Shown: one piece after another, positions 105 to 52,243 of the stretch
Position numbering within the stretch: position 1 is the first letter of the stretch
Layout: each line of letters starts with the position of its first letter
Source of the DNA: Naegleria gruberi
Taxonomy: Eukaryota
DNA: 64,000 nucleotides
Assembly: GCA_000004985.1 (NCBI GenBank)
Contig: GG738853.1
Reading direction: 5' to 3' (one strand)
Made by a program: the position numbers and the translations under genes
Notes under the pieces: model-generated
Databases searched by the model: none
What the model saw: the letters and a program-made list of their open reading frames with translations, nothing else
Told to the model about the DNA's origin: nothing

Positions 105-1691
105 ATGCTTAGCCAAGAAGACCTCAACTCTGTTAATACTTTGAATGACGACTATGAAAAGCGCAGACTCAGCAAGGATCGGATTAAAAAACAAGCTCGG
201 AAGGCTCTAATTGATCATCAAAGATTGAAACATTTCAAAACAAAAAATTTCTTGCTGAGAAGAGTGGTTCTTCCTTTTTCTGAAATTGAAATTGAAAGAT
301 TAGCAATATATATGAATATGGAATTTAATAATTATGAAACAATTTTTGAAAGTGTAAAAATGATTAGATTGTTTTCGGCTGGAACAGATTTGCACTTTTC
401 ATGGATTGTTAAAGCTGGAATTACAAAGTATCTTGTTGATTTTCTTGATGTGAAATATGTCTCAAGGTATTTCAATATTCAAAGCGATGAGAATTTTCAT
501 ATTGATGATTCCTCAATAACAAATAGAATAAGCACAGCACAGTTATTGGCACTTCAATATGAATCTGTGAGGTCTCTTACTAATATAGGCCGCAGAACAA
601 TAGAGTATGTTCAACATATTGTAGACCTAGGATGTGTTCCAAAATTGATTATGCTCGTTAATGCTTGTAATGATTCTGAAATGCAATATCAGTCCATTTT
701 GGCATTAGATAACATTAATCAAAATAGTCACGAAATAATAGAGTTCAGAGATACATTGCTAAGTCATGGCTATTTGGACATACTTATCAATTTTATTAAT
801 TCAAACAATAATCAATTGGAGCGAATTCGAAATGGTATGTGTTTAAAATTTATTATATTCATTAATTTTTGCAGTAACATACTCAATTTCTATTTTATTA
901 TCGAGAAATTACACCACAGCACCTGTACAATATTTTGAAAAGGCAATCCCAATACTTTCCAAAATGCTCCATCAATCTGAGATATCTGATGGTTTTCTTT
1001 GGGATTTTTCCTTACTAACAGATGTAGAACCTGCAATTAATCAATTGGTTATTACATCCGATACCATTTCAAAATTGGTGGCACTCCTCTCCGACAGCTC
1101 TATACATAACCAAATGTAAGTATCACATAGATTCTTTCTACTCATCAATAGTAATACAGACCTGCTTCTCGTACTATTTCAAATATTTGTACAGATAATA
1201 CTATTCAAACAGAAATTGCCTTAAATAGTGGATTATTGGAAAAGGTATCCATTTTCCTTACGAGTGAAAACAATTTACTCATAAGAGAAGCATTCTATAT
1301 ACTTTCAAGTATACCTGCAGAACAAATCGAGGGGGTGGTAGTGAATTCTAAAATAACGCCTCTTTTTTTGGAAACGTCAAAATTTAATGATAATCTCTTT
1401 GTCAAACCTGGGCTGTTTTCTTTCATAGAGACTCTGTGCTGCCGTGGCAACCATAAAATTATTAATCATCTAATCAATCTCAATGTAATTGAAATATTAC
1501 ACTCTGGATTGTGTGATGAATTTCTTAGAGTATGTTTAGAAACCCTTTCCAATATTTTACAAGTTGAAGAGTGCAAAGAAAGGGCCATTCAAGAGATGAA
1601 ACATTTGAACACTTTTGAAAAGATCAAATCAGAGATTCAAAATGCAGACCTTACAAAATCCATTGGTGCTACATTGGCTTCCTTACTTTAA
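105..1691 (+). CDS. Importin-alpha-like armadillo-repeat protein (3 exons: ~105..834, ~875..1115, ~1196..1691)
   Basis: Seen: the ORF 105..938 translation carries ARM-repeat signatures typical of importin-alpha (VRSLTNIGRRTIEYVQHIVDLGCVPKLIMLVNACNDSEMQYQSILALDNI). A GTATGT..TTTTGCAG intron at 835..874 and a GTAAGT..TACAG intron at 1116..~1194 join three open frames (FLWDFSLLTDVEPAINQLVITSD..; ..EAFYILSSIPAEQIEGVV..). The basic N-terminus (KRRLSKDRIKKQARKA) is IBB-like. I could not resolve the exact exon 3 acceptor phase. Confidence 0.55.
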
Positions 1692-18371: not shown

Positions 18372-21300
18372 ATGACCCAACAACACTTCAGCAGTATTCA
18401 TCATTTCTTCACTTTGTTTCTTCTGCTCGTGATTATTCTTTCCACTACTACTAATATTACTTTCGTTTCCGGTCAAGCTGTTTACACTAGTTCTGTTATC
18501 GGTGGAACATTGAACGAAACAAGAGCCATCCATGCCAAAATTATTATCTTTGACAATTATGTTGGTCGTCAATTGGCTATCTCTGCCAATGGTGATATGT
18601 ATACAACTTTGGGTAGAGGAACTGTTCGTAAAATTACTTCTGATGGATTATTTGTTCCATCGGTTGCTGGAATTGAGACCAGTTATGGATTTAGTGGTGA
18701 TGGTGGGTTGGCAATTCATGCACAACTGTCATATTCGCTGGGTATATCTGTTAATCCAATGAATGGAGATGTGTACATATGTGACATAAACAATCATAGA
18801 ATTAGAAAGGTGTCGTCTGATGGTGTTATTTCTACCATCGCTGGAACTGGTAGAACAACTTTAAATCCCATCTCTCCAAATACGTACCGTCAAGAAGGAG
18901 GTTACAATGGTGATGGATTGGCAACCGCAACAGATCTTAATTATCCGAAATATGCTCAAGTTGACTCAAAGGGAGATGTCTATTTTGCTGATACATATAA
19001 TGGACTAATTAGAAAGGTTTCCAATGGATATATTACAACAATTGCAGGTTCAAAGCAAAATAGTACAGTTAATACATTTGGTATGGCCCTTAATACTACA
19101 TTTGGAGATTTGAAATCTTTTTCAATGAATTTGAATACTGGAGATTTGATGATTTATTCAAATAAGGGAATATTTAGAGTATTTTCAAACGGTACTGTTG
19201 TAGTAATACGAAACAGTTTGCTTATTTCCAATAATTATTTTGTTGACATTACATTCAAATCTGATACAGAAGTTCTTTTTGGATTGACCAATTCTATTAT
19301 TTCTTACAATTTAGTTACCAACACTTCCACTGTATTGGTAACAGTTATTTATTTATCAGGATTTACAATTTATAGAGATGAGATTTACATTACTCAATCT
19401 TCAAGAAATCTTGGACAAATCAAAAAGTTATCAATTATTGAAGGAAAAGTTAAAATTATACCAATTGCAGGAATTGAAGATGAAATGTTAGATCCATCCT
19501 ATTCCGGTCCTGTTCAAAATGTTTCTCTTCTCAATGCTAATAGAATTACAGTTAGTTCCTCAAATGAAGATGTGTATTTTAGTGAAACATATTTTAACAT
19601 TGTAAGAAGGATATCATTAAGAACAGGAATTATCTCAACAATGACTGGAACTGGTGTCTGTGGTTACATGTCAGATGAAGATGTTGCAACACAAGCTAAA
19701 TTGTGCAATCCAGTTGGATTAGCAATCAATGATTTGAATGAATTATTCATTGCAAATTCTAATTATCCTGCAATTGTCATGGTAAACAACAGTAGAATTG
19801 TTCCAATTTGTGGAAATGGAGAGTATGGTAGGTCTGTAGATGGTATTTTAGCAGTAGATTCCAAGCTGGTCAATCCTACTGAAATTTCCTTAAATCCCTT
19901 AACAGGTGAACTTTATATTTTGGATGATTACAAGGGAGCTGTAAGGAAAATATTCAAAAATGGAACAATTACTAGCGTAATTACAAAAAATTCAGGTTCT
20001 AGTGAATCTATTGACTATATTGCAGTCAACCCAAAGAGTGGTGAATTTTATTTTCTTTCCAATTCAATACTTTACAAAATGACAACCAAAGGAAGAATAG
20101 CTGTTGCAGGATCAGGTACATCATATGAAGATGGTGTTTTGGCAAAGAATTCTAAATTCAATTCTCCAAAATCAATCGCTTTCAATCCAGTAACGAATGA
20201 CATTCTAGTTACAAGTGACAATTCTATTCGAATCATATTAAGCAATGGAACAATTACAACTTTGAAATATACCAATACTGATCCATTTCCACTTTCTTCT
20301 TTAGAAGGTATTGCTGTTAGCTCAAGTGGTGATATCTATATAGTAGATGCAGGGAATTATGCTATTAGAAAGTTGACACAATGTCCAAATGGATGTTTTT
20401 ATGGACAGTGCAAAACTCCAAATATTTGCACTTGTGATAATGATCATTATGGAATTGATTGTTCGAATAGAATTGATTGGGAATCAAGAACTGCTGTCAT
20501 TATTGCACCAATTCTAGTTATATTACTTATGGGTATTATGATTATTGTAATTGTATTAATTATTTTGATTTATTATTTTAGAAAATCTATTTCAGTTAAA
20601 ATCCAACAAGTTTATGATAATTTAAAACCAAAACAAACAAATATTGAATTGAATCAATCATTGTTGGATTATCAACAACCACAATTGTTTAAAACTAATA
20701 ACATTTCAATAGAGGAAGGATTAATGAATGAAAATGATGATAGTGACGATCCTGTTAATAGATATGAGATTTTGGAAAGAATAGGAAGAGGAGGATTTGG
20801 TTCTGGTAAGTTTATTGGAAATATTTTTATTCGAATCTTTTCCTTATTAGTTTATAAAGTTAAATATATTCAAGATGGTTCGATTAGAGCCCTTAAAACA
20901 CTCAAATATGCTAACATTGAAGAGTTGAATTTAGCAATGAAAGAAGGAACCCAACTAATGAATTTATCACATCCAACCATTTTACATGTGAATGACATTT
21001 TTGTGGGTAAAAATAATTTGATATACATTGATATGGAGTATTATGAACAGGGAGATTTATGTTCTTTAATTTCAAAATCAAATGAACCTTGTAAGGAAGC
21101 AATCATTCTTCAAATTATGAATCAAATTTGTTCAGCTCTTCATTATGTTCACACTCAATTGAAATCCATTCACAGAGATGTTAAACCAAATAATATATTT
21201 ATCAAATCAGTCCATGATAATTCAATTCAGGTTATTTTAGCTGATTTTGGAATGGCTAAACAAAATCAAGGATCTTCAAATAACTCATATGCAGGCACTC

Positions 21301-21608
21301 CATTATTTATGAGTCCTGAACTTGCAATGGGATCTAAATATTCATTTAATACTGATATATTTTCATTAGGAGTAACTATTTATCAAATAATGACCAAGGA
21401 TAGTTCTATTTCTGTTGGTCAATTGCACCTTTGTAAAGATTCTACAAGTGTTAAGGAGATTCTAAGAAATAATATGAGTCAAAGTGGAATGTATTCGGAT
21501 AATTTGATTGAAATTGTAATTATGACTTTAGAGAAAGATCCTCAAAATAGAATTGACTCTTCTCAATTATTGGAAAAGATAAAGATGATGGAATCAAGTC
21601 ACCAATAA
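18372..21608 (+). CDS. Receptor-like protein kinase: signal peptide, NHL-repeat beta-propeller ectodomain, EGF-like module, TM helix, Ser/Thr kinase domain. Two exons: 18372..20805 and 20851..21608.
   Basis: Seen: signal peptide MTQQHFSSIHHFFTLFLLLVIILSTTTNITFVSG, then repeated Y/F-x-x-D-x-x-N-x-x-I-R-K-V NHL-type blades. A Cys-rich EGF-like module follows (CPNGCFYGQCKTPNICTCDNDHYGIDCS), then a TM helix (IIAPILVILLMGIMIIVIVLIILIYYF) and a kinase with GRGGFGS|VYKV, HRDVKPNN, DFG and SPE motifs. A 45-nt GTAAGT..TTAG intron (20806..20850) is in frame and so is read through by the ORF track. Confidence 0.7.
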   Translation: MTQQHFSSIHHFFTLFLLLVIILSTTTNITFVSGQAVYTSSVIGGTLNETRAIHAKIIIFDNYVGRQLAISANGDMYTTLGRGTVRKITSDGLFVPSVAGIETSYGFSGDGGLAIHAQLSYSLGISVNPMNGDVYICDINNHRIRKVSSDGVISTIAGTGRTTLNPISPNTYRQEGGYNGDGLATATDLNYPKYAQVDSKGDVYFADTYNGLIRKVSNGYITTIAGSKQNSTVNTFGMALNTTFGDLKSFSMNLNTGDLMIYSNKGIFRVFSNGTVVVIRNSLLISNNYFVDITFKSDTEVLFGLTNSIISYNLVTNTSTVLVTVIYLSGFTIYRDEIYITQSSRNLGQIKKLSIIEGKVKIIPIAGIEDEMLDPSYSGPVQNVSLLNANRITVSSSNEDVYFSETYFNIVRRISLRTGIISTMTGTGVCGYMSDEDVATQAKLCNPVGLAINDLNELFIANSNYPAIVMVNNSRIVPICGNGEYGRSVDGILAVDSKLVNPTEISLNPLTGELYILDDYKGAVRKIFKNGTITSVITKNSGSSESIDYIAVNPKSGEFYFLSNSILYKMTTKGRIAVAGSGTSYEDGVLAKNSKFNSPKSIAFNPVTNDILVTSDNSIRIILSNGTITTLKYTNTDPFPLSSLEGIAVSSSGDIYIVDAGNYAIRKLTQCPNGCFYGQCKTPNICTCDNDHYGIDCSNRIDWESRTAVIIAPILVILLMGIMIIVIVLIILIYYFRKSISVKIQQVYDNLKPKQTNIELNQSLLDYQQPQLFKTNNISIEEGLMNENDDSDDPVNRYEILERIGRGGFGSGKFIGNIFIRIFSLLVYKVKYIQDGSIRALKTLKYANIEELNLAMKEGTQLMNLSHPTILHVNDIFVGKNNLIYIDMEYYEQGDLCSLISKSNEPCKEAIILQIMNQICSALHYVHTQLKSIHRDVKPNNIFIKSVHDNSIQVILADFGMAKQNQGSSNNSYAGTPLFMSPELAMGSKYSFNTDIFSLGVTIYQIMTKDSSISVGQLHLCKDSTSVKEILRNNMSQSGMYSDNLIEIVIMTLEKDPQNRIDSSQLLEKIKMMESSHQ

Positions 21609-28121: not shown

Positions 28122-29470
28122 ATGGTTGGTTTCCTACATAGCTCTGGAAATAATGGAGATGATCTTCAGGAACCTAAATCACCAACCCGAACCAATTCAA
28201 ATGCCAGCAACAATGCTCAAACACAGAGGAAGAAGTCGACTTTTCTTTCTCCTACTCAAGTAGCAACCAGTTTGGCAGATATGAGCGAAGGAAAGAGAAG
28301 AAGTAGTCTTGTTCCAGAAACTCCAGAAAGTAATAAATTGAGAATTGTATTGATAGGAGGTGGTGGTAAGTTATGCATTAGAATTATCGAATAACACATT
28401 GTATTTCTTCAAGGTTCCGGAAAGACAACCCTCTTTAAACAGAGAAAACTTGTGTTAGGGGGCGGTTTTAGTGGTAAGTTTTAATGAGAGATGAGAACCA
28501 TCTAAATTGCATTTCATCACTACACTTCAGAGAGAGAATATGAACAAGCAAGACTCATTGTTCATACAGAGCTTCTTCATGTCATGTACAGTTTGGCATA
28601 TGAATTGTATAATGGCGATTTTGTGTCAAATGAAAATGTAAAACAAATAGCTCACGATTTCTTGAAGATAGTATCGGAGAAGTGTAATCATAACGAACAT
28701 GCTCTCATCAATTGTATTGAGCATATTATTGAAAAATCTCAACTTTGGAAAACATTCTTTACGAAGGAAATATTCAAGCAAGTTATGGAATTTAATCCGA
28801 AATTTTCATCACTTTTTAATTTTTCTGTGGATCCTTACTTTTCAGAATATGATAGAGTAATGCATATGGATTTCAAACCTCTCGAAAAAGATCATATAGT
28901 ATTTCAGAAAAAGACAACAGGTATTGTCGAGTCAAGTTTCGAATATATGAATTCTTTCATTGTTCATCTGTAAGTAACTCATTCTATTAGAATTCAACTA
29001 GATCTATTACCTTTAGATTCGACTCTGGAGGACAAAGAAATGAACGTAAAAAGTGGCCAAACATGTTCTCTCAACCAGTTGATAGCGTTTGGTTTGTTGG
29101 TTCTCTATCCGATTTCACCAAGATGTGTTACGAAAACAATACTCTTAATCGTTTCGAGGACTCCCTGGCAGTATTCAGTGATTGGATTGATTCTAATACT
29201 ACAAAGAATATTAGAGATTTTAGACTTATTCTAACTCATGCTGATGAGCTTGAAGAAATGCATATTAGCCCAGAAACTATCTCATTCCTCAAGTCAAATC
29301 TTATTCCACACGGAAATGCCAAGGAGATTATCGATGGCATCACTGCCAAGTATCAACTCTTAGATAAGAATAACAGGTTGACCCAAGTTTCTGTGATTAA
29401 TTGTACTGATACAGAACAAATTAGAGACTATTTAACCACAACTCTAAATAGTATTATTGATGGCAGATAA
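28122..29470 (+). CDS. Divergent heterotrimeric G-protein alpha-like subunit (4 exons: 28122..28365, 28414..28473, 28531..28969, 29017..29470)
   Basis: Seen: the spliced product has a P-loop LRIVLIGGGG|SGKTTLFKQ (canonical GAGESGKST), switch I FQKKTTGIVES, switch II FDSGGQRNERKKW and a G5-like INCTDT. The NKxD guanine-specificity motif is replaced by LILTHADEL. All three introns are GTAAGT..AG. Confidence 0.65.
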
Positions 29471-38620: not shown

Positions 38621-39934
38621 ATGATGGGAAGGTTGAGCTATTCTAAGGGCGTACTCTTGATGGCTCTTTTGGTCATTCTCGCTGTGATTGCATGCAGTGA
38701 TAATGTCCATGCTGCTCCAGCTACACCAGCTGATCCAACAAGGAAACAAACAAAGCCAGTTGCAGCTTCCCCAGCCACACCAGCTGCTAAACAAACCAAT
38801 TCATCCATTACGGAAATTTTCACATGTTTTGGAATCAAATCTGATGATAAGAAGGTTTGTAATGGTTTAGGAACTTGTATTGGAAAAGATAAATGTCGTT
38901 GCATGCCTGGAAAAGCTGGTCCAGAATGTAAACACAGTGGCGGTTTACCTCCAAAACCACAACCAAAGATTATCAATTCTCTATCCAAGAATAACTCTAC
39001 AAAGCCAGTAATTAAACCAGCCTCTATTACAGATCCATCCACTAAGAAAAAGGAAATTTTCACATGTTTTGGAATCAAATCTGATGAAAAGAAGGTCTGT
39101 AATGGTAAAGGAACTTGTATTGGAACAGATAAATGTCGCTGCATGCCTGGAAAAGCTGGTCCAGAATGTAAACACAGTGGTGGTTTACCTCCACCAAAAC
39201 CAAAACCCCAACCAAAGATTAAACCAGCCTCTGTTACAGATCCATCCACCAAGAGTAAGGAAATTTTCACATGCTTTGGTATTAAGTCTGACGAAAAGAA
39301 GGTTTGTAATGGTTTAGGAACTTGTATTGGTAAAGATAAATGTCGCTGCATGCCTGGTAAAGCTGGTCCAGAATGTAAGCACAGTGGTGGTTTACCTCCA
39401 AACCCAAAACCACAACCAAAACCACAACCAAAGATTATCAATTCTCCATCCAAGAATAACTCTACAAAGCCAGTAATTAAGCCAGCATCTATTACAGATC
39501 CTTCCACCATTGGTTTACCAATTCCACCAAAACCACAACCAAAACCTTCTCAACAAAAGCGGAAAGAATCTTTAATCAATAACACCATTAAACCTAAAGA
39601 AGTTGAACCAAAGAAGGATATCAAAATAGATGAAAATCCTGAAAAGAAAGAAGACGAAAAGAATAATGAAAAAACAAAAGAGAAGAGTTCACAAAACAAG
39701 AAACTCAAGAGATGTGGAAAGAAAAAGTGCCAGAAGAGAAAGAATAAGAAGGAAACAAATCAAACAACCACCGAAAAGCAAAAGCTTGACACTATTATTA
39801 ATATGATTAGAAAATTGATTGCTTCAAAGAGAAAGCCAAGTCCACAACCAAATCAAACACCTGTTCAATCTGCTAATGGTCAAAAGTCATCTGTAAACAT
39901 TTCCAATATTATTAATGTTGAAAACGAGCATTGA
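38621..39934 (+). CDS. Secreted protein with three tandem EGF-like Cys modules, a Pro/Thr-rich N-terminus and a Lys/Glu-rich C-terminal tail
   Basis: Seen: signal peptide MMGRLSYSKGVLLMALLVILAVIACSDNVHA. The six-Cys module EIFTCFGIKSD(D/E)KKVCNG(L/K)GTCIG(K/T)DKCRCMPGKAGPECKHSGGLPP.KPQPK occurs three times (EGF-like CxC..G..G..C ending). The tail is basic (KKKCQKRKNKKE). Confidence 0.6.
   Translation: MMGRLSYSKGVLLMALLVILAVIACSDNVHAAPATPADPTRKQTKPVAASPATPAAKQTNSSITEIFTCFGIKSDDKKVCNGLGTCIGKDKCRCMPGKAGPECKHSGGLPPKPQPKIINSLSKNNSTKPVIKPASITDPSTKKKEIFTCFGIKSDEKKVCNGKGTCIGTDKCRCMPGKAGPECKHSGGLPPPKPKPQPKIKPASVTDPSTKSKEIFTCFGIKSDEKKVCNGLGTCIGKDKCRCMPGKAGPECKHSGGLPPNPKPQPKPQPKIINSPSKNNSTKPVIKPASITDPSTIGLPIPPKPQPKPSQQKRKESLINNTIKPKEVEPKKDIKIDENPEKKEDEKNNEKTKEKSSQNKKLKRCGKKKCQKRKNKKETNQTTTEKQKLDTIINMIRKLIASKRKPSPQPNQTPVQSANGQKSSVNISNIINVENEH
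38813..39520 (+). repeat. Three near-identical tandem DNA repeats (~207-250 bp units starting 38813, 39053, 39260) encoding the EGF-like modules
   Basis: Seen: the units are over 90% identical at nucleotide level (gaaattttcacatgttttggaatcaaatctgatga.aagaaggt.tgtaatggt..aggaacttgtattgg...gataaatgtcg.tgcatgcctgg.aaagctggtccagaatgtaa.cacagtgg.ggtttacctcc). The repeat also creates a spurious long antisense ORF (38638..39510). Confidence 0.75.
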
Positions 39935-50714: not shown

Positions 50715-52243
50715 ATGGGAGCTTTTGCATCAAAGAAAGATAAAACAGATAACCCTAAAAAACCCCGAAACTCTTCAAATTCTCAACCAACAAATTCCTC
50801 AACAAGTGGTGTCAACAACAATACATCAACTTCATCTTTATCATCTAATTCTTCTACTGGACCTGTGGTAAAGAATTCACTTTCTGTTTTATTGTTGGGA
50901 ACGGGTGAAACTGGTAGGTTTTATATCTCATAGTTTAGTTTGAATAATTAATTGTTTCGTATAAATTTATTCGAAATTAGGTAAATCAACATTATTTAAA
51001 CAACTTGAATTGATTAATGGAGTGGGTATCATTAAAGAAAATGAAAAATCAATGTGGGCTACTCTAATTCATGGCAATGTAATTTCTGACATGAAAACTT
51101 TGATTGGAATTGTTGAGGAAATGGATGTTCAAGAAGTTTCGGATGAAATGCACGAATTAATTCAAGAAATATTAGAATTACCTGATCAAAATGTTACTAT
51201 TAATGAAGAATTATGTGAAAAGTTGAAGAAACTGTGGAATTATGAAGTAGTTAGGGAAGCTTATGATAATAGAGATCAAGCTTTGGATTCTGCTGAATAG
51301 TAAGTTTCTAATAATTTATAGTAATTTAGACGATTTGGGTTTTTAACATTTTCATAACATGAATTTCTCTAATTGTTGTTGACCTTTCGAATAATTATTC
51401 TTTTACAGTCTCTATAATAATATTGATAGAATTGCCAAGCCAGATTACTCACCAACAGTTGATGATGTTCTTCATTGTCGTGTAAAGACACTTGGTGTGC
51501 ATCATGTTGAACTCATGATGGATGGAAACTTTAAATTTAAATTGATTGATGTTGGTAAGTAGTTTCTATAAATGGATTTTGAGAATATTTATTGATTTGT
51601 TTACAATAATTTTTCTATAATTATTATTATAATATTTATAGGTGGTCAACGTTCTGGTAAGTTTTGATGATTTTTCTTGGTAGAATTTAACATTTAAAGA
51701 ACGAAGAAAGTGGCTTGAACGTAAGTTTTTTTATTCGAATTGGATATTTATAGTAATTTAATATTGGAAATGAATAATTGAATGATTGGAATATTGAAAT
51801 AATTTCGAATTGGATGAAAAATAGTCATGTCAGAAGTTGATGCTGTCATTTTCATGACATCTTTAGCTGAATTTGATCAAGAATGTTATGAGGAAAAAGG
51901 ATTTAAACGTGTTGTTGAATCTTTGGAAACATTTGAAAAGGTCATTAACAACAAACTCTTCCAAAAAGTTCCATTCATTCTCATGTTAAATAAGCGTGAC
52001 TTATTCGAGAGGAAGATTGCAAAGAAGAGTTTCAAGAAATATTTCCCAAATTATACAGGTGATGAAAAGAATCCCCAACAATGTATTGATTTCATTTCGA
52101 AAATGTTTTTGGGTAAATGTAAGGAACGATCAACTGATACCATTCTAGTTCAACCTCATTGTGCTATCAGTAAGGAAGAAACAGAACAAATGCTGCAACA
52201 TGCAAAGAACTTTGTAATAGGTCAATACTCAAAGAAGAAGTAG
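50715..52243 (+). CDS. Heterotrimeric G-protein alpha subunit (6 exons: 50715..50913, 50981..51299, 51409..51554, 51642..51656, 51700..51720, 51825..52243)
   Basis: Seen: MGAFASKK (Gly2 myristoylation-type start), an S/N-rich linker, the P-loop LLLGTGETG|GKSTLFKQ, DSAEY|LYNNIDRIAKPDYSPTVDDVLHCRVKT, DV|GGQRS|ERRKWLE|LMSEVDAVIF (switch II split over 15-nt and 21-nt micro-exons), LMLNKRDLF (NKxD) and a C-terminal HCAI (TCAT-like). Every intron is GT(A/G)AG..AG. Confidence 0.75.

What the first reader, a model, noticed from the sequence alone, without database searches (positions are those of the whole stretch)
18372..21608. Receptor Ser/Thr kinase with NHL beta-propeller ectodomain, and a 45-nt in-frame intron inside the glycine loop
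- **Seen:** signal peptide, many NHL-like blades, an EGF-like Cys module, one TM helix, and an intact kinase (Lys, HRD, DFG and SPE all present).
- **Seen:** an intron at 20806..20850 is GTAAGT..TTAG, exactly 45 nt with no stop, so an unspliced transcript would insert 15 aa between GRGGFGS and VYKV.
- **Inference:** retention of this intron could act as an on/off switch for kinase activity, since it disrupts the ATP-binding loop.
- **Inference:** the NHL-ectodomain receptor kinase architecture is uncommon outside a few protist lineages.
Basis: partly seen in the sequence, partly recalled or inferred. Interest (0 to 1): 0.5.

Follow-up and report, generated by a model that had tools for sequence, protein, structure and literature searches.

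The report
Naegleria receptor kinase with unannotated intron
This is an already-deposited Naegleria gruberi gene for a membrane receptor kinase with a beta-propeller sensor; the 45-base piece in its ATP-binding loop is almost certainly an ordinary short intron that the public annotation missed, and nothing supports it being a switch.

Summary
The window is Naegleria gruberi NEG-M. The gene at 18372..21608 is public as XP_002680487.1 / UniProt D2V611, "serine/threonine kinase", 1078 aa.

The protein has an N-terminal hydrophobic leader, about twelve NHL blades modelled as two propellers, a six-Cys EGF-like module, one TM helix and a kinase with all catalytic motifs.

The splice call is well supported:
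- Removing 20806..20850 (GTAAGT…TTAG, phase 1) restores GRGGFGSVYKV.
- All relatives and NEK2 then align without a gap.
- The Pfam kinase score rises from 143 to 166 bits.
- Well-supported neighbouring introns are 47–82 nt, all with GTAAGT donors.
- This is the only sense-strand GTAAGT inside a long open frame in 64 kb.

The public model reads through the intron, so it carries 15 spurious residues.

The "on/off switch" is unsupported. A 3n, stop-free intron of this size is expected by chance in about 11–15% of cases. The intron is absent from all four relatives whose DNA I could read. No transcript data were reachable.

The kinase is NEK-like, not TKL. The NHL–TM–kinase architecture is a Naegleria-lineage family, with the domain order reversed relative to bacterial PknD. 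This is ordinary biology plus an annotation correction.

The parts
18372..20805 (+). Exon 1 of the receptor kinase gene (N. gruberi XP_002680487.1 / D2V611): residues 1-811 plus the first base of codon 812
   Evidence: Continuous ORF. Exact match of the read-through translation to the public protein.
18372..18473 (+). N-terminal leader: probable cleavable signal peptide (MTQQHFSSIHHFFTLFLLLVIILSTTTNITFVSG|Q)
   Evidence: Kyte-Doolittle peak at residues ~5-34. AF2 helix 8-22 followed by disorder. The cleavage site is inferred and was not run through a predictor.
18549..20375 (+). NHL-repeat region, residues ~60-668: about 12 four-stranded blades, modelled as two six-bladed beta-propellers (66-366, degenerate blades 4-6; 389-668)
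   Evidence: Pfam NHL and TEN_NHL. AF2 pLDDT 74 with ~47 strands. Foldseek hits to teneurin-like protein, teneurins, SOQ1, NHLRC2 and LRP6. phmmer hits to teneurin-like protein (3e-45), TRIM2/3 NHL and PknD 1rwi (7e-6).
20382..20462 (+). EGF-like six-cysteine module (CPNGCFYGQCKTPNICTCDNDHYGIDC)
   Evidence: Cys spacing read from the sequence. Pfam EGF_PEAR1L is only E 0.05, below the cut-off. Relatives P0056, P0320 and P0181 carry EGF-type Pfam hits at the same place.
20493..20579 (+). Single transmembrane helix (residues 708-736), followed by RK
   Evidence: Kyte-Doolittle 19-residue mean up to 3.7. It is the only internal hydrophobic segment.
20580..20762 (+). Cytoplasmic juxtamembrane linker (residues 737-797)
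   Evidence: Lies between the TM helix and the start of the Pfam kinase match.
20763..20805 (+). Start of the kinase domain: beta-1 strand and glycine-rich loop GRGGFGS
   Evidence: Pfam Pkinase profile positions 1-14 align only in the spliced product.
20806..20850 (+). 45-nt phase-1 GT-AG intron (GTAAGT ... TCTTTTCCTTATTAG), in frame and stop-free, not annotated in the public gene model
20851..21608 (+). Exon 2: rest of the kinase domain (VYKV... K827, E843, HRD 919-921, DFG 943-945, SPE 966-968), C-terminus and TAA stop at 21606-21608

Best explanation
The locus is a two-exon Naegleria gruberi gene for a type I single-pass receptor-like Ser/Thr kinase.

Domain order: signal peptide, two NHL beta-propellers and an EGF-like module outside the cell, one TM helix, a ~60-residue juxtamembrane linker, and a C-terminal NEK-like RD kinase inside the cell.

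The 45-nt segment 20806..20850 is an ordinary short U2-type intron. It is normally spliced out, giving a 1063-aa protein with a canonical GRGGFGSV glycine loop. Because the intron happens to be a multiple of three with no stop codon, the reference annotation read through it. The deposited 1078-aa protein therefore carries 15 intron-encoded residues.

Inferred, not shown: ligand binding or clustering at the propellers controls kinase activity across the membrane, by dimerisation and activation-loop phosphorylation as in other single-pass receptor kinases.
For: Shown:
1. Identity of the locus and of the public unspliced model: exact look-ups of seven window proteins, including the 1078-aa read-through product. 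The spliced form is absent from the collection.
2. Six Naegleria relatives that cover the G-loop have no insertion at this point. Ten further family members carry an uninterrupted GxGxFGxV.
3. NEK2 aligns ungapped across the junction of the spliced form.
4. Pfam Pkinase scores 166.3 bits over profile positions 1-259 when spliced. The annotated protein scores 143.4 bits over positions 15-259.
5. In an AF2 model of the unspliced kinase (pLDDT 87), the only segment with pLDDT below 50 is the G-loop tip plus most of the inserted residues.
6. The intron matches the local style. Other GTAAGT introns in the window are 48, 57 and 47 nt in a G-alpha-like gene, each restoring conserved G-alpha motifs. 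One of 82 nt reproduces the annotated XP_002680488.1 exactly. A 43-nt candidate lies in a second G-alpha gene. A 44-nt candidate at 1116-1159 comes from the ORF-joining scan only.
7. Only one of the 23 GTAAGT hexamers in the window lies on the sense strand inside a stop-free frame of at least 600 nt, and it is this one. The hexamer is depleted overall: 23 observed against 43±6.6 in shuffles.
8. The intron is 22% GC; the CDS is 31.5%.
9. Topology and domains.
Against: - No transcript or peptide evidence could be reached. No near-identical transcript-derived protein is in the collection, and N. gruberi gene positions are not indexed.
- The official model, for whatever reason, is unspliced.
- The annotated mean intron length in N. 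gruberi is 203 bp (PMC8296547), so 45 nt lies well below the mean.
- The intron is not positionally conserved in the four related loci examined, so conservation cannot support it.
- The signalling mechanism is inferred from architecture alone.
Confidence: 0.8

Rival explanations
1. Regulated intron retention, an exitron-like switch. Both mRNAs are made. Because the retained form is in frame and stop-free, it escapes nonsense-mediated decay. It is translated into a receptor whose glycine loop carries 15 extra hydrophobic residues, giving a kinase-impaired or decoy isoform whose proportion is controlled.
For: - The segment is 3n and stop-free, so a retained transcript would be translatable.
- The insertion lies exactly at the ATP-binding hairpin, while the rest of the domain still models as a confident kinase fold.
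- Intron retention is reported as the dominant form of alternative splicing across eukaryotes, N. gruberi included (PMC6142364).
Against: - The 3n stop-free property is expected by chance in about 11-15% of introns of this size and composition.
- The segment has intron-like rather than exitron-like features: lower GC than the flanking CDS and a perfect consensus donor. Exitrons are described with higher GC and weaker splice sites (PMC4484396).
- The intron is absent from the four related loci with readable DNA, and no relative carries a homologous insertion.
- There are no transcript data.
Confidence: 0.1
2. It is not an intron. The 15 residues are a genuine lineage-specific insertion in the glycine loop, as in the public annotation, and the splice-like ends are coincidental.
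For: - The deposited gene model is unspliced.
- The frame stays open.
- AF2 still folds the remainder of the domain with the insertion looped out.
Against: - A perfect GTAAGT donor, a pyrimidine-rich tract and a TAG acceptor sit exactly where excision restores GxGxFGSV.
- No relative has any insertion there.
- The Pfam match loses 23 bits and profile positions 1-14.
- GTAAGT is otherwise absent from sense-strand long open frames in 64 kb.
- GC drops to 22%.
Confidence: 0.07

Closest known systems
N. gruberi paralogues XP_002675547.1 (D2VK55, P0005) and XP_002678153.1 (D2VCE7, P0056), within the wider Naegleria/Willaertia receptor-kinase family
   Same: The NHL-repeat ectodomain, single TM helix ~80-100 residues upstream of the kinase, and a C-terminal kinase 46-53% identical, with the same motifs HRDVKPSNIFIK and AGTPLFMSPE.
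   Different: Overall identity is only 33% with D2VK55, so there is no close orthologue. Their annotated G-loops are uninterrupted. Blade numbers and extra modules differ, and some family members lack NHL altogether.
Mycobacterium tuberculosis PknD and PknD-type bacterial kinases (sensor domain PDB 1RWI/1RWL)
   Same: A Hanks-type Ser/Thr kinase joined through one TM helix to an extracellular NHL beta-propeller sensor. The ectodomain matches 1rwi at E 7e-6. PknD's sensor is proposed to switch the kinase (PMC6107167).
   Different: The domain order and topology are reversed: bacterial proteins have the kinase at residues ~12-270 and NHL at the C-terminus. The window gene has two propellers plus an EGF-like module. 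Its kinase is closer to eukaryotic NEK/STE20 than to bacterial StkP (106 against 85 bits).
NEK family kinases (NEK2, NEK1, NEK7)
   Same: These are the best solved-structure matches to the kinase domain, at E 2e-29 to 2e-27. They share NIF(I/L) after HRDxKxxN and GTPxxMSPE.
   Different: NEKs are soluble, with the kinase at the N-terminus. The margin over STE20 kinases is only ~12 bits, so orthology is unproven.
Other protist and plant single-pass receptor Ser/Thr kinases, such as Entamoeba TMKs (PMC2880585) and plant RLKs
   Same: Type I layout: ectodomain, one TM helix, cytoplasmic kinase. Lineage-specific expansion.
   Different: Different ectodomains (CXXC/LRR and others) and different kinase groups. 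Plant RLKs are TKL/IRAK-like, whereas here Pkinase outscores PK_Tyr_Ser-Thr at 166 against 115 bits.
Exitrons (Marquez et al. 2015, PMC4484396)
   Same: Relative to the public annotation, this is an intron inside an annotated coding exon, of 3n length and without stop codons.
   Different: Exitrons are defined by alternative splicing, which is untested here. They are described with coding-like composition and weak splice sites. This segment has lower GC than its exon, a perfect consensus donor, and encodes residues with no counterpart in relatives.
Teneurin / teneurin-like protein NHL domains and LRP5/6 propeller-EGF ectodomains
   Same: Extracellular six-bladed propellers followed by EGF-type modules. 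These are the top Foldseek and phmmer PDB hits.
   Different: They have no kinase. LRP propellers are YWTD type, not NHL.

Membership tests
Eukaryotic protein kinase superfamily (Pfam PF00069), catalytically competent | Full-length match to the kinase profile above the curated cut-off | tested here: met
   166.3 bits against a cut-off of 31.7, profile positions 1-259 of 263, spliced form.
Eukaryotic protein kinase superfamily (Pfam PF00069), catalytically competent | GxGxxGxV loop, VAIK Lys, alpha-C Glu, HRD, DFG and APE-type motifs | tested here: met
   G805-V812 (only after splicing), K827, E843, HRD 919-921, DFG 943-945, SPE 966-968. Activity itself was not tested.
NHL-repeat beta-propeller | Repeated NHL motifs above the Pfam threshold and a propeller fold | tested here: met
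   PF01436 scores 59.9 bits (cut-off 20). PF25021 scores 77.4 bits (cut-off 27.1). The AF2 model is all-beta with ~12 four-stranded blades. PDB hits are NHL proteins.
U2-type spliceosomal intron | GT-AG ends with the organism's consensus donor, a pyrimidine-rich 3' end, and a length within the local range | tested here: met
   GTAAGT...TCTTTTCCTTATTAG, 45 nt. Well-supported neighbouring introns are 47, 48, 57 and 82 nt, and scan or reading candidates are 43 and 44 nt, all with GTAAGT donors.
U2-type spliceosomal intron | Excision restores the conserved protein sequence | tested here: met
U2-type spliceosomal intron | Spliced junction observed in RNA | not testable with these tools
   RNA-seq PRJEB23822 exists (PMC6142364) but could not be read. 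No transcript-derived protein was found.
Exitron / regulated retained intron | Alternative splicing, with both isoforms present | not testable with these tools
   No transcript data.
Exitron / regulated retained intron | Coding-like composition and weaker splice sites than ordinary introns (PMC4484396) | tested here: not met
   GC is 22% against 31.5% in the CDS, and the donor is a perfect GTAAGT.
NEK kinase family | Kinase domain groups with NEKs to the exclusion of other groups | tested here: inconclusive
   NEK2, NEK1 and NEK7 are the best PDB matches at 106-99 bits, but STE20 kinases follow at 94-92 bits. No phylogeny was built.
NEK kinase family | Soluble protein with an N-terminal kinase domain | tested here: not met
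   The kinase is C-terminal to a TM helix and an ectodomain.
TKL group receptor kinases (plant RLK, TGF-beta receptor type) | Kinase domain of TKL type | tested here: not met
   PF00069 scores 166 bits against 115 for PF07714. No TKL kinase appears among the best 60 PDB matches.
PknD-type bacterial receptor kinase | N-terminal cytoplasmic kinase, TM helix, C-terminal extracellular NHL propeller | tested here: not met
   The order is reversed here. Six bacterial or metagenomic NHL kinases all have the kinase at ~12-270.
EGF-like domain | Six cysteines with EGF spacing, plus a profile match | tested here: inconclusive
   The spacing C-x3-C-x4-C-x5-C-x-C-x8-C is present. Pfam EGF_PEAR1L is E 0.05, 14.1 bits against a cut-off of 37.5. 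The AF2 pLDDT is below 50 in this region.
Type I single-pass membrane receptor | Cleavable signal peptide, one TM helix, N-out topology | tested here: inconclusive
   Two hydrophobic segments only, RK after the TM helix, sequons enriched in the ectodomain, and an extracellular-type EGF/NHL region. No signal-peptide predictor or experiment was available.

The most novel reading that the evidence does not exclude
The in-frame, stop-free intron in the glycine loop is retained in a regulated way, for example during the amoeba-flagellate-cyst transitions. Naegleria would then make both an active receptor kinase and a G-loop-disrupted decoy from one gene. That would be an exitron-like protein-level switch in a deeply branching eukaryote.
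Probability: 0.07. Interest if true: 0.55.

Novelty: new member of a known kind. Interest (0 to 1): 0.25.

Why it matters
The practical value is an annotation correction. The reference protein XP_002680487.1 / D2V611, and everything derived from it, carries 15 intron-encoded residues inside the ATP-binding loop. That would mislead kinome classification, modelling and inhibitor work.

It also points to a general blind spot. Short 3n, stop-free introns in Naegleria can be silently read through by gene callers.

Biologically, the gene belongs to a lineage-restricted family of single-pass receptor kinases with NEK-like catalytic domains, many with NHL propellers. Members were found in Naegleria gruberi, N. 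fowleri, N. lovaniensis and Willaertia. I found no description of this family in the searchable literature. It is a candidate environmental or prey-sensing system, including in the pathogen N. fowleri. The splicing-switch idea would be interesting only if transcript data showed regulated retention.

Tried and rejected
- Exact look-up of genomic positions for the window protein and for N. gruberi paralogue P0005 failed, because N. gruberi is not in that index. Intron positions in N. gruberi paralogues therefore could not be checked.
- A search with the cytoplasmic part for transcript-derived (Logan/ENA) near-identical proteins, which would have shown the splice state, found none.
- The single metagenome scan with the kinase-family alignment used generic HRD/DFG patterns. 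It returned only ~30%-identical, mostly bacterial-type kinases and did not even recover L001, so it was uninformative.
- I considered whether TTCGAAT near the 3' end of several short introns is a branch-site-like signal. The word is over-represented across the window (44 observed against 12 expected) but also occurs in exons, including this gene's, so it was not used as evidence.
- I considered horizontal transfer of a bacterial PknD-type gene. I rejected it as a whole-gene event because the domain order is reversed and the kinase scores higher against eukaryotic NEK/STE20.
- I considered the alternative acceptor at 20859 (54 nt, also 3n). I rejected it because it would delete VYK, which is conserved in relatives.
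- The literature searches for a described Naegleria NHL receptor kinase or kinome returned nothing relevant. The genome paper itself is not held.
Full report
**What the window is.** Exact-sequence look-ups of seven translated ORFs from the window hit Naegleria gruberi NEG-M proteins, six of them (including the target ORF) on a single 695,587-bp scaffold; the actin is on other contigs. The hits include actin, a UDP-glucose pyrophosphorylase, a phosphatase, a RhoGEF protein and the target ORF itself. Window GC is 33.8%, which matches the published 33% for NEG-M (PMC8296547). The read-through translation of 18372..21605 (1078 aa) is identical to XP_002680487.1 / EFC47743.1 / UniProt D2V611, "serine/threonine kinase". 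The gene is therefore public, but as the unspliced model.

**Check of the observation.** The coordinates are exact: ATG at 18372 and TAA at 21606-21608, in one frame.
- Pfam on the spliced protein gives Pkinase 798-1053 (1.1e-48, 166.3 bits, profile 1-259 of 263) and PK_Tyr_Ser-Thr (115 bits).
- It also gives NHL (three stretches) and TEN_NHL (four stretches), plus a sub-threshold EGF_PEAR1L hit at 671-699.
- A hydropathy scan finds only two hydrophobic segments. These are an N-terminal leader (about residues 12-25) and a strong TM helix at 708-736 followed by RK.
- Ten of the 15 N-glycosylation sequons lie in the ectodomain.
- The Cys spacing at 671-697 is C-x3-C-x4-C-x5-C-x-C-x8-C, which is EGF-like.
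- All catalytic motifs are present: K827, E843, HRD 919-921, DFG 943-945, SPE 966-968.
- The 45-nt segment is GTAAGTTTATTGGAAATATTTTTATTCGAATCTTTTCCTTATTAG. It is phase 1, with codon 812 split as G|TT, and has no stop. Read through, it encodes GKFIGNIFIRIFSLL.

**Ectodomain structure.** An AF2 model of residues 1-706 has mean pLDDT 74 and is all-beta from 66 to 668 (34-sequence alignment).
- It has about 47 strands, which fall into two sets of roughly six four-stranded blades: 66-366 and 389-668.
- Blades 4-6 of the first set are degenerate and partly low-confidence, with residues 283-325 below pLDDT 50.
- I infer two six-bladed propellers. I could not inspect the coordinates.
- Foldseek against the PDB returns a teneurin-like protein, SOQ1, teneurins, LRP6 tandem propellers and NHLRC2.
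- Sequence search of the PDB returns the teneurin-like protein (3e-45), Pizza designer propellers, TRIM2/3 NHL domains and the PknD sensor 1rwi (7e-6).

**Is the 45-nt segment an intron?** Seven independent lines of evidence say yes.
1. In an alignment with eight family kinases, every one of the six that cover the G-loop lacks the 15 residues and reads GxGxFGSV. Ten further family members from the exhaustive search also carry an uninterrupted motif.
2. Human NEK2 aligns without a gap across the spliced junction.
3. The annotated unspliced protein loses profile positions 1-14 and 23 bits on the Pfam kinase model: 143.4 bits over positions 15-259, against 166.3 bits over 1-259.
4. In an AF2 model of the unspliced kinase domain (pLDDT 87.2), the only segment below pLDDT 50 is fragment residues 22-37. 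This is the G-loop tip plus most of the inserted residues.
5. The segment matches the local intron style.
   - A G-alpha-like gene at 28122..29466 needs three GTAAGT introns of 48, 57 and 47 nt to restore LIGGGGSGKTT and FDSGGQRNERKKW.
   - The adjacent DJ-1-like gene needs an 82-nt GTAAGT intron, and that model reproduces the annotated XP_002680488.1 exactly.
   - A 43-nt candidate in a second G-alpha gene was read by eye.
   - A 44-nt candidate at 1116..1159 comes from the ORF-joining scan only.
6. Of the 23 GTAAGT hexamers in the window, only this one sits on the sense strand inside a stop-free frame of at least 600 nt. The hexamer is depleted overall, at 23 against 43±6.6 in shuffles.
7. 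GC falls to 22%, against 31.5% for the CDS.

Against this, the official model is unspliced, and 45 nt is far below the annotated mean of 203 bp. I could not reach any RNA evidence. I put the probability of a real, normally spliced intron at about 0.8-0.9.

**Is retention a switch?** Nothing supports it.
- Simulated 45-nt introns with fixed ends are stop-free in this phase 33% of the time using local intron composition, and 43-45% of the time using this intron's own composition. With the one-in-three chance of a 3n length, that gives about 11-15%. Among the thousands of N. gruberi introns, many such cases are expected by chance.
- The segment has none of the coding-like properties reported for exitrons, which are higher GC and weak splice sites (PMC4484396).
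- The intron is not shared by the relatives I could read.
  - An environmental NHL-TM-kinase gene (L001) has a contiguous G-loop, with an intron about ten codons upstream.
  - A N. fowleri relative (L002) has a contiguous G-loop.
  - N. fowleri P0320 (L083) and N. lovaniensis P0181 (L084) have intron-less kinase regions.
- There is therefore no conservation signal for the intron, let alone for its frame.
- A retained transcript would be translatable and would escape nonsense-mediated decay, so a minor aberrant isoform is plausible. Regulation is pure conjecture.

**Kinase class.** The best solved-structure matches are NEK2, NEK1 and NEK7 (106-99 bits), followed by STE20-group kinases (94-90) and then bacterial StkP and ULK1 (about 85). 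Pkinase outscores the Tyr/TKL-type profile. The motifs HRDVKPNNIFIK and AGTPLFMSPE are NEK-like; that comparison rests on my own knowledge of NEK motifs. I call the kinase NEK-like and not TKL. Group membership is unresolved without a phylogeny.

**The family and its distribution.** An exhaustive HMMER search with exon 2 found about 25 representative clusters at 37-54% identity.
- In nearly all of those that are not bare kinase fragments, the kinase is C-terminal and lies roughly 70-150 residues after a single TM helix.
- About half have NHL-like ectodomains.
- In N. gruberi the NHL members are D2VK55, D2VCE7, D2VUG2, D2VNU7, D2VPM5 and D2VGC0, plus this gene.
- In N. fowleri there is A0A6A5BWY7. 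In N. lovaniensis there are A0AA88GH69, A0AA88KKA5 and A0AA88GEU9.
- A Willaertia magna member shares the kinase type, but no NHL was detected in it.
- The named members are all Vahlkampfiidae.
- Bacterial and metagenomic proteins that combine Pkinase and NHL all have the kinase at the N-terminus, which is the PknD arrangement (PknD sensor 1RWL as cited in PMC6107167).
- I found no paper describing this Naegleria family.

**Mechanism (inferred).**
- The N-terminal leader directs the NHL/EGF part outside the cell.
- The propellers bind an unknown ligand or surface.
- Signal transfer through the single TM helix most likely works by oligomerisation and activation-loop phosphorylation of the RD kinase, as in other single-pass receptor kinases and as proposed for PknD.
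- None of this was tested.

**Verdict.** It exposes an error in the reference annotation. The switch hypothesis is unsupported and is explained by chance. The architecture is a lineage-specific member of the broad class of single-pass receptor Ser/Thr kinases. Interest is low to moderate at 0.25.

Noticed in passing
window 28122..29466 (+); introns 28366-28413, 28474-28530, 28970-29016: A G-alpha-like gene needs three short GTAAGT introns (48, 57, 47 nt). The first splits its P-loop (LIGGGG|SGKTT) and uses an AAG acceptor. My 398-aa spliced model is not in the public protein collection, so the reference model there probably differs.
   Followed up: partly
window ~50900..52240 (+); micro-exons 51642-51656 and 51700-51720: A second G-alpha gene appears to have 15-nt and 21-nt micro-exons separated by a 43-nt GTAAGT intron. 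They lie inside the switch II motif DVG|GQRS|ERRKWLE. This was read by eye from the sequence only.
   Followed up: partly
whole window: GTAAGT is under-represented, at 23 on both strands against 43±6.6 in mononucleotide shuffles. On the sense strand of long open frames it occurs only at 20806. This suggests selection against donor-like hexamers in exons.
   Followed up: partly
whole window, e.g. 20830, 51386, 51734, 51804: TTCGAAT occurs 44 times against 12±3.5 expected. It sits 16-23 nt upstream of the 3' splice site in several short introns, but it also occurs in exons. Its meaning is unknown.
   Followed up: partly
L002 (N. fowleri VFQX01000038.1) ~225-245: The kinase ORF of a family member has a one-base frameshift in a T-run. 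The annotated protein P0138 starts downstream at MDYYENGDL. This is either an assembly error or a pseudogene.
   Followed up: no
P0328 / P0215 (N. gruberi D2VGC0), residues ~1915-1925: This family member's annotated G-loop reads RIGSGRTFKV, which is shortened and lacks the FGS. That may be another mis-modelled splice site at the same hot spot.
   Followed up: no
L001 (JGI metagenome 3300002220, contig MLSBCLC_10311507) 1269..3301: This is an environmental relative with a compact form of the same architecture: leader, one NHL propeller, TM helix and a kinase 52% identical. It has an intron just upstream of the G-loop, and a frameshift coinciding with an imperfect tandem repeat of about 9 nt between the NHL and TM parts.
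   Followed up: partly
P0123/P0125; a 9198-bp N. gruberi contig: A small second contig duplicates the UGPase gene and the first 277 residues of this receptor kinase. It is probably an unmerged haplotype in the NEG-M assembly. P0123 is the cluster representative, and this hid the full-length protein from the first homology search.
   Followed up: no
window 38621..39934 (+): This is a secreted-looking protein with three near-identical Cys-rich EGF-like repeats separated by Pro/Lys-rich linkers, and a highly basic tail (annotated D2V619, predicted protein).
   Followed up: no
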